IMG/VR virus record: IMGVR_UViG_3300017760_000001
Coordinates: 32,001 to 96,000 of that record
DNA length: 64,000 bases
Reading direction: 5' to 3' (one strand)
Origin: a virus
Shown: positions 21,565-23,954 of the stretch, one piece after another
Layout of the letters: each line of letters starts with the position of its first letter
Numbering within the stretch: the stretch's first letter is position 1
Translations under genes and position numbers: made by a program
The notes under the pieces: generated by a model
Told to the model about the DNA's origin: nothing
The model's input: the letters and a program-made list of their open reading frames with translations, nothing else
Database searches by the model: none

Positions 21565-21593
21565 TTGACAAACTTTGCTACATACTGTATAAT
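21565..21593 (+). promoter_or_regulatory. Sigma70-type promoter of the plus-strand island
   Basis: TTGACA-17-TATAAT, then GAGG RBS. Confidence 0.85.
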
Positions 21594-21618
21594 GTGTAAC
21601 AGATGATGAGGAAAGTAA

Positions 21619-22749
21619 ATGATTTTAGAACATAAAGATGCGTTATACGCAGCCAATGCTTTTGATGAGTTCTTCGGGAACATCGAACGTATTGATGAAT
21701 ACATGAGACAGGTCAAGATGGAACGTATGGAATCCTTTCCGTACTCTCTGCCTGGCATGGGGCCAGAAGAAGATCTGTTCAGCAACTTCGATATCCATCC
21801 GTCAGAGATGGAGTTTGTAATACAAGAATCGCCCGCAAATCAATTCATGTCCTATATGGAAATTGTTACGTCCGCACCTGTGGAGGCATCGATCCCAGGC
21901 AAGGGATTGAAGTGGGTGATCAAAGAAAAGAACACTAACAAAGTTATCGGTATGATTCGTTTCGGGTCTCCTACTATTAATAGTAAACCACGGAACGAAT
22001 GGTTAGGACGACCACTAGACAGTATGAATCCAGAGGTTATGAAAAGGTTCAACGACTCCGCAATCATGGGGTTCAACATTGTACCTACTCAACCGTTTGG
22101 ATACAACTATCTTGGTGGTAAGTTACTGGCCGCAATATGTTGTTCCCACTACACACGTGAAGCATTGAACAAGAAGTATGATAGTAACTTCTGTATGTTC
22201 GAGACCACTTCGTTATACGGATCAACTAAGTCTGCTTCGCAATACGATGGTATGAAACCATTCTTGCGATTCAACGGTTTGACAGACTCAAACTTCTTAC
22301 CACTTATCAATGACGACACTTACCGCAGACTAAGTGCATGGTTCATTGAGAAAAACGGTGGTGAACCCTTGGTTCCTGTTGACGCCTCATCTCGTAAACT
22401 AAAAACACAAACCAAGATGGCATCTATCATCAAAGCCTCTCTCAAAGTTCATGATGAAGTTGCCTACAAGAAGTTCTGTCAAACCTACTCTAATGCAAAG
22501 GATCTGACCGAACAGAAACGTTCGTTCGTGTCCACATATGGTTACGAGAATGTACCCCAGTACTTGAACCTAGAAACAGATACATTGATCAAGAAAGAGA
22601 ACTTTGACAGATTCTCTCTTGAGGGTGTTACCGCATGGTGGCGTAAGAATGCCGTCAAACGTTATGACAAACTCAAGAGTGAAGGTCGTCTGAGACGTAC
22701 CGTGGAGACTTGGAACGTCAATGCAGACGATATCGATATTATAAGATAA
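21619..22749 (+). CDS. DUF4338/DruA-like protein (probable GNAT/Mom-like fold)
   Basis: GMIRFGSP, IVPTQPFGYNYLGGKLLA, FETTSLYG..SQYDG resemble DruA motifs (LLGGKLVA, TTSLYG..SQY). Confidence 0.7.
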   Translation: MILEHKDALYAANAFDEFFGNIERIDEYMRQVKMERMESFPYSLPGMGPEEDLFSNFDIHPSEMEFVIQESPANQFMSYMEIVTSAPVEASIPGKGLKWVIKEKNTNKVIGMIRFGSPTINSKPRNEWLGRPLDSMNPEVMKRFNDSAIMGFNIVPTQPFGYNYLGGKLLAAICCSHYTREALNKKYDSNFCMFETTSLYGSTKSASQYDGMKPFLRFNGLTDSNFLPLINDDTYRRLSAWFIEKNGGEPLVPVDASSRKLKTQTKMASIIKASLKVHDEVAYKKFCQTYSNAKDLTEQKRSFVSTYGYENVPQYLNLETDTLIKKENFDRFSLEGVTAWWRKNAVKRYDKLKSEGRLRRTVETWNVNADDIDIIR

Positions 22750-22817
22750 GATTCTTATATATAATAGTAAGGCATTCATACCGAATGTCAAAAATAAAAT
22801 AATCTAAGGAGATTATA

Positions 22818-23810
22818 ATGATTACTAGTAACACTAAATTTAGTGGCGTTTCTGGCGCACTATCAAATCTTAAAGGTGAACGTGTATCCATTCAGGAAGT
22901 CATCGACACCGTCCTACAAATCACCAACATGAAATCAAAGACATTGGCTGACATGAAGACCAATGCATCTTACAATCCATCTGAAGTTGGTGTAGTTCCT
23001 TTAAATTCTCTTTATGTTGATATGACCTATCAACGTATCATTCGTCTTCAGAAGTTGATCAACAAACTTCGAAAGTTGGGCGGGTTTGACATGTACTCTG
23101 CTGGCGTTGTTGATATTGCGATACGACCTAGTGGTGACAGTTATGTATGGGACGGTCTAAGACGTTGCATCATGGCTGGACTATGTGGATTGACTCACGT
23201 GAAGTCATCTCAGTTCGTACATCCAATGAACGCCTCCAATGAAGATTGTCAAAAACAAGAGGCAAGATATTTCAAGTCTCGTAATGCAGACCAAGAAAGT
23301 ATGAAGGCAGAAGAAATATTTAAATCAGAAGTTGTTTATGGTGACCCGAAAGCACTAGAACTTTTGAGACTAATTAAAAACTGTAGACTCGACATCGAAG
23401 GATTAAATCCAGGCGGCCGAATTTTCGGTGGGTTTGTCGAGGTACGTGACAATTACTTCAAGAAAGATAAAATAGAAGACGAGTATTTTATTGAAGCGTC
23501 AAGTATTATTCAAAACATTTATCCTAAAGAAGTTATCTCTGGTTACTTGTTGACTGGTCTTGCGTATCTTTTAACTAAGAACGAAGATTCAGATATATCT
23601 TACTCAGCCGAAGAACTGGTAGAAGCTTTACGTAATTACGCATCAGTCAATCAGAAACAAACAGATCTGATCCGTGGTAGACTGGCAGGAAACGCAAGAG
23701 GTAGTATCGCTTACCTAATCGCAAGACGTGTACTAAGAGATAACAACGGACTTATCAATTCTATTGGATTAGATGAAGAATCTATGAATTTAGTTGACGA
23801 AGCGGCTTGA
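22818..23810 (+). CDS. ParB/Srx-like N-terminal domain protein (DGQHR-like)
   Basis: LYVDMTYQR, YVWDGLRR, EARYFKSRN; AAGGAG RBS. Confidence 0.65.
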   Translation: MITSNTKFSGVSGALSNLKGERVSIQEVIDTVLQITNMKSKTLADMKTNASYNPSEVGVVPLNSLYVDMTYQRIIRLQKLINKLRKLGGFDMYSAGVVDIAIRPSGDSYVWDGLRRCIMAGLCGLTHVKSSQFVHPMNASNEDCQKQEARYFKSRNADQESMKAEEIFKSEVVYGDPKALELLRLIKNCRLDIEGLNPGGRIFGGFVEVRDNYFKKDKIEDEYFIEASSIIQNIYPKEVISGYLLTGLAYLLTKNEDSDISYSAEELVEALRNYASVNQKQTDLIRGRLAGNARGSIAYLIARRVLRDNNGLINSIGLDEESMNLVDEAA

Positions 23811-23836
23811 CATTGACCTAAGAGTTGTGGTATAAT
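23807..23836 (+). promoter_or_regulatory. Sigma70-type promoter for the tRNA
   Basis: TTGACA-18-TATAAT with extended -10 (TGG). Confidence 0.8.
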
Positions 23837-23849
23837 ATACCCATATTAT

Positions 23850-23921
23850 GCGGAATTAGTATAATGATTACATTAGGTGTCCAACCTAAAGATGGAGGTT
23901 CAAGTCCTCTGTTCCGCTCCA
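23850..23921 (+). tRNA. tRNA-Gly(TCC), atypical (short D-loop, G33)
   Basis: Cloverleaf: acceptor GCGGAAT/GTTCCGC, anticodon arm TTAGG-TGTCCAA-CCTAA, T arm GGAGG-TTCAAGT-CCTCT, U73, encoded CCA. Confidence 0.9.
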
Positions 23922-23932
23922 ATCTCTCTCTT

Positions 23933-23954
23933 ACCCCTCTTCGGAGGGGTTTTT
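23933..23954 (+). terminator. Intrinsic terminator of the plus-strand island
   Basis: ACCCCTC-TTCG-GAGGGGT-TTTT. Confidence 0.9.

What the first reader, a model, noticed from the sequence alone, without database searches (positions are those of the whole stretch)
21565..23954. Self-contained plus-strand cassette (DUF4338/Mom-like protein, ParB-like protein, aberrant tRNA-Gly): candidate Gly-tRNA-dependent DNA modification system
Seen: this is the only plus-strand island in 64 kb, bounded by a consensus sigma70 promoter and a UUCG terminator. It holds a protein with DruA/DUF4338-type motifs (NYLGGKLLA, ETTSLYG..SQYDG), a ParB/DGQHR-like protein and one tRNA-Gly with its own promoter. Known: Mu Mom is a GNAT-fold enzyme that makes N6-carbamoylmethyl-adenine and, as I recall from recent work, takes the glycine from Gly-tRNA-Gly. 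ParB-like domains often accompany phage DNA-modification genes. Inference: the DUF4338 protein is a Mom-like glycyl transferase, and the phage supplies a dedicated tRNA-Gly kept out of translation as donor, protecting its DNA from restriction. If true, it would also suggest a chemistry for Druantia DruA.
Basis: partly seen in the sequence, partly recalled or inferred. Interest (0 to 1): 0.92.

Follow-up and report, generated by a model that had tools for sequence, protein, structure and literature searches.

The report
Phage Mom-like enzyme with private tRNA-Gly
An uncultured marine T4-like phage carries an early-expressed three-part cassette: a DruA-family enzyme whose closest solved fold is phage Mu's DNA-modifying enzyme Mom, a ParB-fold helper protein, and the genome's only tRNA, a glycine tRNA that looks chargeable but has an abnormal anticodon loop. 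This points to an untested system that brings its own activated glycine, probably to modify DNA.

Summary

- **ORF1** (21619-22749) is a Pfam DruA/DUF4338 protein with a confident GNAT-fold model. Its top solved-structure match out of 48,161 chains is Mu Mom (8bv8, Z 10.0). That match is tied with generic GNATs, and there is no sequence-level homology to Mom.
- **ORF2** (22818-23810) has a ParB/Srx-fold N-domain with an invariant WDGxRR motif plus a helical C-domain. This is the architecture of DpdB, the ATPase partner of the DNA modifier DpdA.
- **The tRNA-Gly(UCC)** is the only tRNA in the 144-kb genome. It keeps the GlyRS identity set, has G33, and lacks G18G19.

G33 is fixed in all 33 viral contigs that carry this tRNA family. 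Every contig with enough flank also has a DruA-like gene within 1.5 kb, in several gene orders. A sister form (A34, "ACC") also sits beside DruA-like genes and is the sole, unannotated tRNA of cultured pelagiphage HTVC008M.

About half of the DruA-like lineages lack the tRNA. The donor and the target are both unproven. A translational or anti-nuclease role for the tRNA is not excluded.

The scan has flagged the same pairing on other DNA, in at least 37 genomes. No paper in the searched library describes the enzyme-tRNA link.

The parts
21565..21593 (+). Early sigma70-type promoter of ORF1-ORF2 (TTGACA-17-TATAAT, 12/12)
   Evidence: one of 8 perfect consensus sites in the window against 0.07 expected.
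21619..22749 (+). ORF1, 376 aa. DruA/DUF4338-family GNAT-fold protein (phrog_19197) with a Mom-like fold and a helical insertion between beta6 and beta7.
   Evidence: Pfam PF14236 at 4.3e-11 and 42.9 bits. PADLOC DruA1 at 2e-6. AF2 model with pLDDT 90.5. VIA-wide top hit is 8bv8_B Mom, Z 10.0, 166 residues aligned. Foldseek PDB returns GNATs. BFVD returns Mom and Mom-REase fusions.
22818..23810 (+). ORF2, 330 aa. ParB/Srx-fold N-domain (about residues 56-160, invariant YQR and WDGxRR) plus an alpha-helical C-domain. DpdB-like architecture, no nuclease domain detected.
   Evidence: phrog_2558 at 2e-12 and phrog_1033 (ParB-like) at 3.5e-4. Alignment A2 invariants. AF2 pLDDT 92.6. Fold hits to ParB, KorB, PadC and Srx at Z 5.7-7.2. 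Atlas clusters carry DUF6551 and ParB_N.
23807..23836 (+). The tRNA's own early promoter (TTGACA-18-TATAAT with TG extension). It overlaps the ORF2 stop codon.
   Evidence: A promoter is conserved upstream of the tRNA in related loci.
23850..23921 (+). tRNA-Gly(UCC), 72 nt with encoded CCA. G33, 7-nt D-loop without G18G19, A51:U63, full GlyRS identity set. It is the sole tRNA of the 144-kb genome.
   Evidence: ARAGORN. Rfam at 48.1 bits. Whole-genome ARAGORN finds only this tRNA. Cloverleaf MFE z-score -2.85. Family covariation: 100% of cells paired and 10 of 20 pairs compensatory.
23933..23950 (+). Intrinsic terminator (7-bp stem, UUCG loop, T run) that ends the cassette
   Evidence: It is conserved downstream of the tRNA in close relatives.

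Best explanation
The cassette is an early-expressed module that modifies nucleic acid, most likely DNA.

Shown:
- ORF1 is a DruA-family GNAT-fold transferase whose closest solved fold is Mu Mom.
- ORF2 is a ParB-fold protein built like DpdB.
- The tRNA-Gly is structurally conserved, keeps every GlyRS identity element, and has lost near-universal features of elongator tRNAs (U33, G18G19).
- The tRNA stays beside DruA-like genes through rearrangements.

Inferred mechanism:
1. Host RNA polymerase transcribes the tRNA from its own strong early promoter.
2. Host GlyRS charges it with glycine.
3. ORF1 takes glycine from Gly-tRNA in a Mom- or FemX-like manner and transfers it to a nucleobase amine in replicating phage dsDNA.
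4. The ParB-fold ORF2 acts as an NTP-dependent DNA-loading or scanning partner, as DpdB does for DpdA.
5. [quoted passage not shown] The tRNA then serves as a private glycyl donor, like the non-proteogenic tRNA-Gly species that feed staphylococcal Fem transferases.

The modified DNA would resist nucleases. These could be host nucleases or the phage-encoded nucleases that often occupy the neighbouring slot.
For: 1. Fold. The AF2 model (pLDDT 90.5) gives Mom 8bv8_B as the top of 48,161 chains: Z 10.0, rmsd 3.5, 166 of 202 residues aligned, the longest aligned stretch among the ten best hits. FemA also appears at Z 8.7. In BFVD the first named hit is a Mom protein, and about nine Mom-REase-type 'endonuclease-like' proteins follow, including one from PA5oct (PMC7824862). 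The model has a helical insertion (about residues 226-298) between beta6 and beta7; the Mom paper does not state where Mom's essential HTH-like insertion sits in the topology, so this resemblance is an inference. A GenBank homolog is annotated 'methylcarbamoylase mom'.

2. DNA context.
- In cyanophages and pelagiphages the gene sits between the clamp-loader genes or next to DNA polymerase.
- The adjacent slot holds an EcoRI-family endonuclease (PF02963, 8e-18), DUF262/HNH proteins, a PD-(D/E)XK exonuclease or ParB-like proteins. This parallels the Mom-REase fusions.
- Bacterial DruA belongs to a DNA-targeting defence system.

3. ORF2. ORF1 and ORF2 are adjacent again in a different genomic context, next to DNA polymerase, at 70% and 67% identity. 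A 42%-identical ORF2 homolog lies beside QueE-like and QueD genes. DpdB has the same ParB-fold plus helical-domain design and is required for DNA modification by DpdA (PMC10164549).

4. tRNA.
- It is the sole tRNA in this 144-kb genome and in a 122-kb relative.
- G33 is present in 33 of 33 contigs found with a pattern that did not require it.
- All contigs with enough flank carry a DruA-like gene 0.08-1.5 kb away.
- The cassette sits at different positions and orientations relative to the conserved backbone.
- The association occurs in at least 4 well-supported DruA clades.
- A covariance model recovers further copies with a decayed T-loop (L033) or no D-arm (L051).
- A sister form with A34 lies 62 bp upstream or 118 bp downstream of DruA-like genes.
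- HTVC008M's only tRNA is an A34 tRNA-Gly that lacks both GG and the T-loop UUC.
- The GlyRS identity elements and CCA are invariant, while the stems covary.
- The codons read by UCC make up only 5% of glycine codons in the major capsid gene.

5. Precedents. Mom uses Gly-tRNAGly (PMC13219725). Dedicated non-proteogenic tRNA-Gly species exist in S. aureus (PMC7826273).
Against: - Mom's lead over ordinary acetyl-CoA GNATs is under 1 Z unit, so it counts as a tie. Foldseek against the PDB ranks malonyl-CoA decarboxylase and generic GNATs first.
- There is no sequence relationship to Mom by Pfam PF25680, HMM search or hhalign.
- The conserved QPFG...GGK segment lies at the beta4-alpha3 position where GNATs bind the CoA pyrophosphate, so an acyl-CoA donor is possible.
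- The Mom paper itself says that the co-substrate cannot be predicted from structure.
- Many DruA-like genes have no tRNA-Gly nearby: the L019/L028 group, L036, L043, L047, L052, L066 and the cyanophages. One 88-kb contig has six tRNAs and none is Gly. Mosig, with a distant DUF4338, has no tRNA-Gly.
- In HTVC008M the tRNA lies 8.3 kb from the enzyme gene, next to ribosomal protein S21.
- The window's tRNA keeps a canonical T-loop and a readable UCC anticodon. Early genes use GGA/GGG for 32-40% of glycine codons.
- SAR11 hosts rarely have R-M systems (PMC7029224).
- All linked loci are related phages, so common descent inflates the counts.
Confidence: 0.4

Rival explanations
1. The tRNA serves translation and is linked to ORF1 only by shared ancestry. 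It would be a phage tRNA-Gly that supplements GGA/GGG decoding for early genes. Its altered anticodon loop (G33 or A34) would let it escape host anticodon nucleases. ORF1 would be an unrelated acyl-CoA-dependent GNAT acting on DNA or a protein. The two would sit together because both are promoter-bearing morons in the same hyperplastic region.
For: - Phage tRNAs with anticodon-loop changes that evade tRNA-targeting defences are documented (PMC10264068, PMC11555353).
- Early genes use GGA+GGG for 32-40% of glycine codons.
- The window tRNA has a canonical T-loop, A37, CCA and a standard 7-nt loop.
- The slot next to DruA-like genes is highly variable and rich in selfish-looking nucleases such as HNH-HTH.
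- The tRNA has been lost in many lineages.
- HTVC008M's copy sits beside the S21 gene.
- The QPFG..GGK motif occupies the CoA-binding position.
Against: - It is the sole tRNA of the genome, yet it reads the less-used glycine codons. GGT is 58% of glycine codons overall, and GGA+GGG are 5% in the capsid gene.
- The G33 copies have lost G18G19, one of them (L033) has also lost C56, HTVC008M's A34 copy has lost both, and one relative (L051) has lost the whole D-arm. An anticodon-nuclease escape model does not explain losses outside the anticodon loop.
- Adjacency to DruA-like genes survives inversion, relocation and a swap of the tRNA between the 5' and 3' sides.
- No non-Gly tRNA was found within 0.9 kb of a DruA-like gene; the nearest are an unassignable tRNA-like gene about 0.94 kb downstream in L018 and a tRNA-Thr about 4 kb upstream in L043.
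Confidence: 0.3
2. ORF1 is an aminoacyl-tRNA-dependent transferase, but its acceptor is not DNA. It could act on a protein N-terminus, a cell-envelope precursor or a lipid, as Fem, L/F-transferase and MprF enzymes do, with the private tRNA-Gly as donor.
For: - FemA is among the structural hits at Z 8.7, and a FemAB-family protein appears in BFVD.
- Known aa-tRNA-dependent GNATs mostly act on non-nucleic-acid acceptors (PMC13219725, discussion).
- The tRNA linkage evidence is the same as for the best explanation.
Against: - The gene sits in the replication module in cyanophages and pelagiphages.
- Its partners are ParB/DpdB-like proteins and nucleases.
- The DruA family belongs to a DNA-targeting defence system.
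- Mom and Mom-REase proteins outrank Fem proteins in both structure libraries.
Confidence: 0.1
3. The tRNA is the substrate of ORF1, not its donor. ORF1 would acylate the amino group of Gly-tRNAGly, as the GNAT toxins TacT and AtaT2 do, or acylate a base of the tRNA, as TmcA does. The purpose would be host shut-off or tuning of the phage tRNA.
For: - AtaT2 and another GNAT toxin appear among the fold hits.
- TacT and AtaT2 are specific for Gly-tRNAGly (PMC13219725, text and references).
- The physical linkage between enzyme and tRNA is equally well explained.
Against: - ORF1 carries large extra helical domains that the roughly 170-aa toxins lack.
- No antitoxin-like partner is present.
- The replication-module context and the ParB and nuclease partners point to DNA.
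- Many lineages keep the enzyme without the tRNA.
Confidence: 0.1
4. ORF1 is a captured DruA copy that acts as a decoy or inhibitor of host Druantia type I defence. The tRNA and ORF2 would be unrelated.
For: ORF1 passes the Pfam and PADLOC DruA models. Phages often carry homologs of defence proteins, as the Phold preprint notes for DruA-like proteins in Synechococcus phages.
Against: - The family is large, with more than 6,700 proteins, and is conserved in T4-like phages of cyanobacteria and SAR11.
- Putative active-site positions are invariant from phage to distant members. That fits an enzyme better than a decoy.
- This phage has no DruE-type partner.
- The tRNA linkage would remain unexplained.
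Confidence: 0.05

Closest known systems
Bacteriophage Mu Mom (Pfam PF25680, phrog_1384, PDB 8bv8; PMC13219725)
   Same: Both are GNAT-fold phage enzymes. Mom is the best solved-structure match to ORF1 (Z 10.0, 166 residues aligned). Both have a helical insertion within the GNAT domain. In jumbo phages Mom is paired with nucleases (PMC7824862), as DruA-like genes are here. Mom's co-substrate is Gly-tRNAGly, and ORF1 is genetically linked to a tRNA-Gly.
   Different: There is no detectable sequence homology. ORF1 is 376 aa against about 231, with extra N- and C-terminal helical domains and a larger insertion. Mom uses host tRNA and has no private tRNA or ParB partner. Mom is a late gene under Com control, whereas this cassette has early sigma70-type promoters. 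The activity of ORF1 is untested.
Druantia type I DruA (Pfam PF14236 / DUF4338)
   Same: ORF1 is a sequence-level member: 42.9 bits against a cut-off of 27, plus a PADLOC DruA1 hit. The Aravind lab calls DUF4338 a GNAT domain (PMC10853773). Conserved positions are shared with distant members of the family.
   Different: ORF1 is encoded by a lytic T4-like phage. There is no DruB-E, and no DUF1998/MZB domain occurs in the genome. The Pfam match covers only residues 61-198. The biochemical role of DruA is itself unknown.
Staphylococcal non-proteogenic tRNA-Gly (NP1-3) feeding FmhB/FemA/FemB (PMC7826273)
   Same: These are dedicated tRNA-Gly isoacceptors that keep GlyRS identity but have altered D and T loops and bind EF-Tu weakly. 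They serve GNAT-fold aminoacyl transferases outside translation. The phage tRNA family shows comparable losses: no G18G19, and the T-loop UUC lost in HTVC008M and L033.
   Different: The staphylococcal system is cellular, not viral, and its acceptor is a peptidoglycan precursor. G33 and A34 are not features of the NP tRNAs. Non-ribosomal use of the phage tRNA is only inferred.
DpdB, the ParB-fold ATPase partner of the DNA transglycosylase DpdA (PMC10164549)
   Same: [quoted passage not shown] PadC and Noc are among the top structural neighbours of both. DpdB is encoded next to a DNA base-modifying enzyme. An ORF2 homolog lies beside Que genes.
   Different: No sequence-level match to DpdB, DndB or DGQHR models was found for ORF2. 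The partner enzyme is a GNAT, not a TGT. NTPase activity is untested. ORF2 is replaced by unrelated genes in close relatives.

Membership tests
DruA / DUF4338 (PF14236) | Match to the family HMM above the curated cut-off | tested here: met
   42.9 bits against a cut-off of 27, E 4.3e-11, residues 61-198. PADLOC DruA1 at 2.2e-6. The same family is detected in the whole-genome search.
Druantia type I defence system | DruA encoded together with DruB-D and the DruE helicase (DUF1998/MZB) | tested here: not met
   The neighbours are phage structural genes. No PF09369 match occurs in the complete 144-kb genome.
GNAT superfamily | GNAT alpha/beta core fold | tested here: met
   The model has pLDDT 90.5. 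There are 50 chains at Z of 8 or more, and all 50 rows shown are GNAT-fold proteins. Foldseek also returns GNATs.
Mom family (PF25680) | Sequence match to the Mom HMM | tested here: not met
   Mu Mom scores 253 bits on PF25680. ORF1 gives no hit at E up to 1. The genome search is negative. hhalign probability is 0.2%.
Mom family (PF25680) | Mom-specific fold features: closest structural neighbour, and an HTH-like insertion | tested here: inconclusive
   8bv8_B ranks first (Z 10.0, 166 residues aligned) but lies within 1 Z of generic GNATs. Mom and Mom-REase proteins are prominent in BFVD. ORF1 has helices at 232-294 between beta6 and beta7, but no residue-level superposition was possible.
Mom family (PF25680) | Essential residues R111, S124 and R151, and Gly-tRNAGly-dependent transfer to N6 of adenine in dsDNA | not testable with these tools
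The residue requirements come from PMC13219725.
ParB/Srx superfamily (ORF2) | ParB/Srx N-domain fold with an arginine-rich DGxxR-type motif | tested here: met
   The top six VIA hits are all ParB/Srx-fold proteins (Z 5.7-7.2, residues 56-160). Foldseek returns ParB, KorB and Noc. WDGxRR is invariant in 35 homologs.
DpdB / DndB (DGQHR) families (ORF2) | Match to curated DGQHR, DpdB or DndB models | tested here: not met
   NCBIfam gives no family at E up to 1 for ORF2, and Pfam gives none above cut-off. Only the architecture is similar.
tRNA (Rfam RF00005) | Covariance-model score above gathering, and a cloverleaf supported by covariation | tested here: met
   48.1 bits against 29. Across 13 distinct family members, 100% of 260 cells are paired and 10 of 20 pairs are compensatory, with 0 of 500 shuffles as high.
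Canonical elongator tRNA | U33, G18G19 in the D-loop, and T54-Psi55-C56 in the T-loop | tested here: not met
   G33 and a 7-nt D-loop (UAAUGAU) without GG. G33 is fixed in 33 of 33 contigs. The T-loop UUC is kept in the window copy but lost in HTVC008M and L033.
Bacterial tRNA-Gly (GlyRS substrate) | G1:C72, C2:G71, G3:C70, U73, C35 and C36 | tested here: met
   All of these are present and invariant in the 13 distinct sequences. The identity set is as listed in PMC7826273. Actual charging was not tested.

The most novel reading that the evidence does not exclude
A widespread group of marine and freshwater T4-like phages encodes a private tRNA-Gly that has left translation. It serves only as the glycyl donor for a DruA-family GNAT, which aminoacylates bases in phage DNA with help from a ParB-fold NTPase. 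By extension, DruA of Druantia type I would mark or sense DNA through aminoacyl-tRNA-dependent chemistry.
Probability: 0.3. Interest if true: 0.9.

Novelty: new variant of a known kind. Interest (0 to 1): 0.75.

Why it matters
- **A second family for a new chemistry.** tRNA-dependent DNA modification was established only recently, for Mu Mom, which borrows a host tRNA. A second enzyme family unrelated to Mom in sequence, travelling with its own degenerating tRNA-Gly, would show that this chemistry is widespread in abundant ocean viruses.
- **A new role for viral tRNAs.** It would be the first viral tRNA dedicated to a non-translational job. It would also explain why some large phages carry a single odd tRNA.
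- **A lead for DruA.** It would give a concrete biochemical hypothesis for DruA, the uncharacterised signature protein of Druantia type I defence.
- **It is testable now.** Cultured pelagiphage HTVC008M has the enzyme and an unannotated aberrant tRNA-Gly.

Tried and rejected
- Megablast of the cassette and blastn of the tRNA against 50,697 phage records found nothing.
- phmmer and profile HMM searches of ORF1 and ORF2 against PDB sequences gave only chance-level hits.
- hhalign of the ORF1 family against Mu Mom gave nothing. I therefore dropped any claim of sequence-level Mom homology.
- hhalign of the ORF2 family against the alternative genes in the slot after DruA gave nothing. I rejected the idea that all partners are ORF2 homologs. 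Only weak DUF262/DGQHR signals exist for some of them.
- My first count of structure pairs used a structure string shifted by one column and is void. One search is the corrected run.
- The two distant DruA homologs I looked up lie on contigs too short to show Druantia context.
- The eLife paper on anticodon-loop escape does not mention tRNA-Gly or position 33.
- I considered that loci scored as lacking a tRNA might hide divergent mimics. The covariance model rescued L033 and L051 but found nothing in nine other loci, even with filters off.
- I considered genome-wide co-occurrence with any DUF4338 gene. Mosig, whose DUF4338 is 28% identical, has tRNA-Pro, -Arg and -Leu but no tRNA-Gly.
- Model coordinates were not exposed, so Mom residues R111, S124 and R151 could not be mapped.

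
Full report
**Where the window lies.** The window is bases 32001-96000 of a complete 144,435-bp IMG/VR virus record with direct terminal repeats and 39.7% GC. It encodes T4-like structural and replication genes. 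The closest cultured relatives of the gene under study are marine cyanomyophages and Pelagibacter phage HTVC008M of the Kyanoviridae.

**Observation.**
- Two perfect sigma70 consensus promoters lie at 21565-21593 and 23807-23836. The window holds eight such sites against 0.07 expected by chance, so they are the phage's real early promoters.
- Two + strand ORFs lie at 21619-22749 and 22818-23810.
- One tRNA-Gly(UCC) lies at 23850-23921.
- A terminator with a UUCG loop lies at 23933-23950.
- All other + strand ORFs of at least 120 aa are shadows of longer - strand genes.

**ORF1.** It passes Pfam DruA/DUF4338 (42.9 bits, cut-off 27) and PADLOC DruA1, and matches phrog_19197 over its full length. 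The family is large: more than 6,700 hits in the 90% clusters and 686 in the 50% clusters.

An AF2 model built on 47 diverse homologs is confident, with pLDDT 90.5 and pTM 0.87. It shows a GNAT core at about residues 61-225 and 299-305, flanked by helical N- and C-terminal parts. A helical insertion of roughly 70 residues lies between beta6 and beta7.

- Foldseek against the PDB returns GNAT-fold proteins.
- The Foldseek-independent scan of 48,161 chains puts the Mu Mom crystal structure first: 8bv8_B, Z 10.0, rmsd 3.5, 166 of 202 residues aligned. Ordinary GNATs follow at Z 9.0-9.5, which counts as a tie. FemA scores 8.7.
- In the viral library, after DruA-like proteins (including three from giant viruses), the first named hit is a Mom protein. 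Roughly nine 'endonuclease-like' proteins of 450-700 aa follow, one of them from PA5oct. The Aravind lab describes these as Mom-REase fusions (PMC7824862).
- At the sequence level there is no link to Mom. Pfam PF25680 gives no hit, profile HMM against PDB gives nothing, and hhalign gives 0.2%.

So ORF1 is a DruA-family GNAT that resembles Mom in fold but is not a member of the Mom family. DUF4338 has already been called a GNAT (PMC10853773). DruA-like proteins in Synechococcus phages have been noted (Phold preprint). One GenBank homolog is annotated 'methylcarbamoylase mom'.

**ORF2.** It has about 78 uncharacterised homologs, with invariant YQR, WDGxRR, H135, E148 and R155-N156. The model (pLDDT 92.6) has a ParB/Srx-fold N-domain. 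The top six VIA hits are ParB, KorB, PadC and sulfiredoxin at Z 5.7-7.2, and Foldseek agrees. A helical C-domain follows, and no nuclease domain was detected. DpdB, the ATPase that DpdA needs to modify DNA, has the same design (PMC10164549).

ORF1 and ORF2 are a real gene pair. In a different lineage they are adjacent again, at 70% and 67% identity, but inside the replication module next to DNA polymerase. A 42%-identical ORF2 homolog lies beside QueE-like and QueD genes.

ORF2 is not obligatory, however. In close relatives with 95-99% ORF1 identity the same slot holds unrelated genes. These include:
- DUF262/DGQHR-like proteins with HNH domains;
- an EcoRI-family endonuclease (PF02963, 8e-18);
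- DUF932;
- a PD-(D/E)XK exonuclease;
- proteins of unknown family.

In cyanophages the DruA-like gene stands alone between the clamp-loader genes or after DNA polymerase.

**The tRNA.** It is the only tRNA in the genome. It folds as a cloverleaf. It carries G1:C72, C2:G71, G3:C70, U73, C35, C36 and an encoded CCA. It also has G33 in place of the near-universal U33, a 3-bp D-stem, and a 7-nt D-loop without G18G19.

Linkage was tested in both directions.
- *Starting from the enzyme.* Of 60 viral loci found with ORF1 as query, 21 have a tRNA by ARAGORN within about 1.5 kb of the enzyme gene. All 21 are tRNA-Gly, and none has a canonical loop: 19 are G33/UCC and 2 are A34/ACC.
- *Starting from the tRNA.* A pattern anchored only on the T-arm and acceptor end finds 33 viral contigs. 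These are the same 33 found when G33 is required, so G33 is fixed. Every contig with enough flank has a DruA-like gene 0.08-1.5 kb away, across 65-99% protein identity.
- *The A34 form.* It occurs in five contigs. In four it lies 62 bp upstream or 118 bp downstream of a DruA-like gene, and the fifth is cut at the contig edge.
- *Position of the cassette.* In the window type it is inverted between the 163-aa gene and gp23. In the L064 type it is co-oriented on the other side of the 163-aa gene.
- *Phylogeny.* On a DruA tree the G33 state lies in at least four well-supported clades, with at least five changes forced, interleaved with clades that lack the tRNA.
- *Hidden copies.* A covariance model built from 13 distinct sequences rescued two loci. 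L033 has a G33 tRNA with C56 changed to A, which ARAGORN missed. L051 has a 64-nt RNA without a D-arm. The model found nothing in nine other loci with filters off.
- *Structure.* Across the 13 sequences, 100% of 260 cells pair, against 42-53% in slid controls. Ten of 20 pairs show compensatory changes, with 0 of 500 shuffles as high. The GlyRS identity set and the loop positions C35, C36, A37 and A38 never vary.

**Cultured relatives.** HTVC008M has exactly one tRNA by Rfam and ARAGORN. It is a tRNA-Gly with A34, D-loop AGAAGUA and T-loop AGCGUUA. It is unannotated, lies 17 nt upstream of the S21 gene, and is 8.3 kb from the DruA-like gene. The pelagimyophage survey lists this phage as having 0 tRNAs (PMC7029224).

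Cyanophages S-SCSM2R and S-PRM1 carry canonical tRNA-Gly(UCC) genes inside ordinary tRNA clusters. Mosig, with a distant DUF4338, has no tRNA-Gly. A 122-kb relative of the window phage also has this tRNA as its only tRNA. A 64-kb and a 63-kb contig have none. An 88-kb contig has six tRNAs, none of them Gly.

**Codon usage.** GGT makes up 58% of glycine codons. GGA+GGG make up 5% in the major capsid gene and 32-40% in early genes.

**Other modification genes.** No Mom-family gene, no methyltransferase of three major families, and no DruE-type domain was found in the genome.

**Interpretation.** The most coherent reading is an early-expressed nucleic-acid modification module. A Mom-like GNAT would use glycine carried by a private tRNA-Gly, assisted in this phage by a DpdB-like ParB-fold protein.

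The fold, the family membership, the architecture, the anatomy of the tRNA and the genetic linkage are shown. The donor, the acceptor, the role of ORF2 and the exclusion of the tRNA from translation are inferred from precedents: Mom (PMC13219725), DpdB (PMC10164549) and the staphylococcal non-proteogenic tRNA-Gly species (PMC7826273).

The main rival is that the tRNA is translational or evades host nucleases (PMC10264068) and sits next to ORF1 by descent. This rival explains the frequent losses and the neighbourhood of S21 in HTVC008M. It does not explain the loss of elbow elements or the persistence of adjacency through rearrangements. I put the tRNA-dependent DNA-modification reading at about 0.4.

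**Novelty.** The enzyme family, its GNAT nature and its presence in cyanophages are in the literature. In the library searched, no paper mentions HTVC008M together with tRNA-Gly, and none of the papers read here describes the link to an aberrant, sometimes sole, tRNA-Gly. The same pairing has been flagged by this scan in at least 37 other genomes. Those are unchecked notes. One of them led me to the covariance-model search, which I ran myself.

Noticed in passing
L111:1501-1574 (HTVC008M KC465899.1, 91140-91213): Cultured Pelagibacter phage HTVC008M has one tRNA. It is an unannotated tRNA-Gly with anticodon ACC (A34), no GG in the D-loop, and T-loop AGCGUUA. It lies 17 nt upstream of the phage ribosomal protein S21 gene. 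The literature lists this phage as having 0 tRNAs.
   Followed up: partly
L018:2905-2982: A second tRNA-like gene lies about 0.9 kb downstream of a DruA-like gene. Its anticodon loop appears enlarged to about 8-9 nt, and ARAGORN could not assign an amino acid (it reports anticodon 'ct'). It could be a frameshift-type tRNA or one that contains an intron.
   Followed up: no
L019:6679-7353 and L028:6524-7189: An EcoRI-family restriction endonuclease gene (PF02963, 8e-18) lies two genes after the DruA-like gene in the lineage without the tRNA, and no methyltransferase is seen in the locus. If the nuclease is active, the phage DNA needs some form of protection.
   Followed up: partly
L069:6001-9517: A 42%-identical ORF2 homolog sits between the gp44 clamp-loader gene and QueE-like, phosphoribosyltransferase and QueD (PTPS) genes. 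This links the ParB-fold family to a 7-deazaguanine pathway.
   Followed up: partly
L010:4254-4946 (also L014, L015, L017): In several close relatives a PhyH/2OG-dioxygenase-like gene (PF05721, 1e-21) is inserted on the + strand directly upstream of the DruA-like gene, which enlarges the cassette.
   Followed up: no
BFVD hits A0A3G4ZXG3, A0A5K0UAJ3, A0A3G4ZRA1: The best viral structural matches to ORF1 include proteins of the giant viruses Faunusvirus, Yasminevirus and Dasosvirus. Two of them are longer than 1,100 aa. DruA-like domains therefore also occur in eukaryotic giant viruses.
   Followed up: no
L051:3994-4057: A 64-nt tRNA-Gly-like RNA lies about 600 bp downstream of a DruA-like gene. 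It has an acceptor stem, anticodon arm, T-arm and CCA, but no D-arm (covariance model score 30 bits).
   Followed up: partly
window 3035-23836: The window holds eight perfect TTGACA-N16-18-TATAAT promoters against 0.07 expected. One of them (17696-17724, + strand) points antisense into the uvsW region with no + strand gene behind it.
   Followed up: no
window 23968-23991 (- strand): A second terminator with a UUCG loop lies on the - strand just after gp23. It faces the cassette's terminator, so the two form a convergent pair.
   Followed up: no
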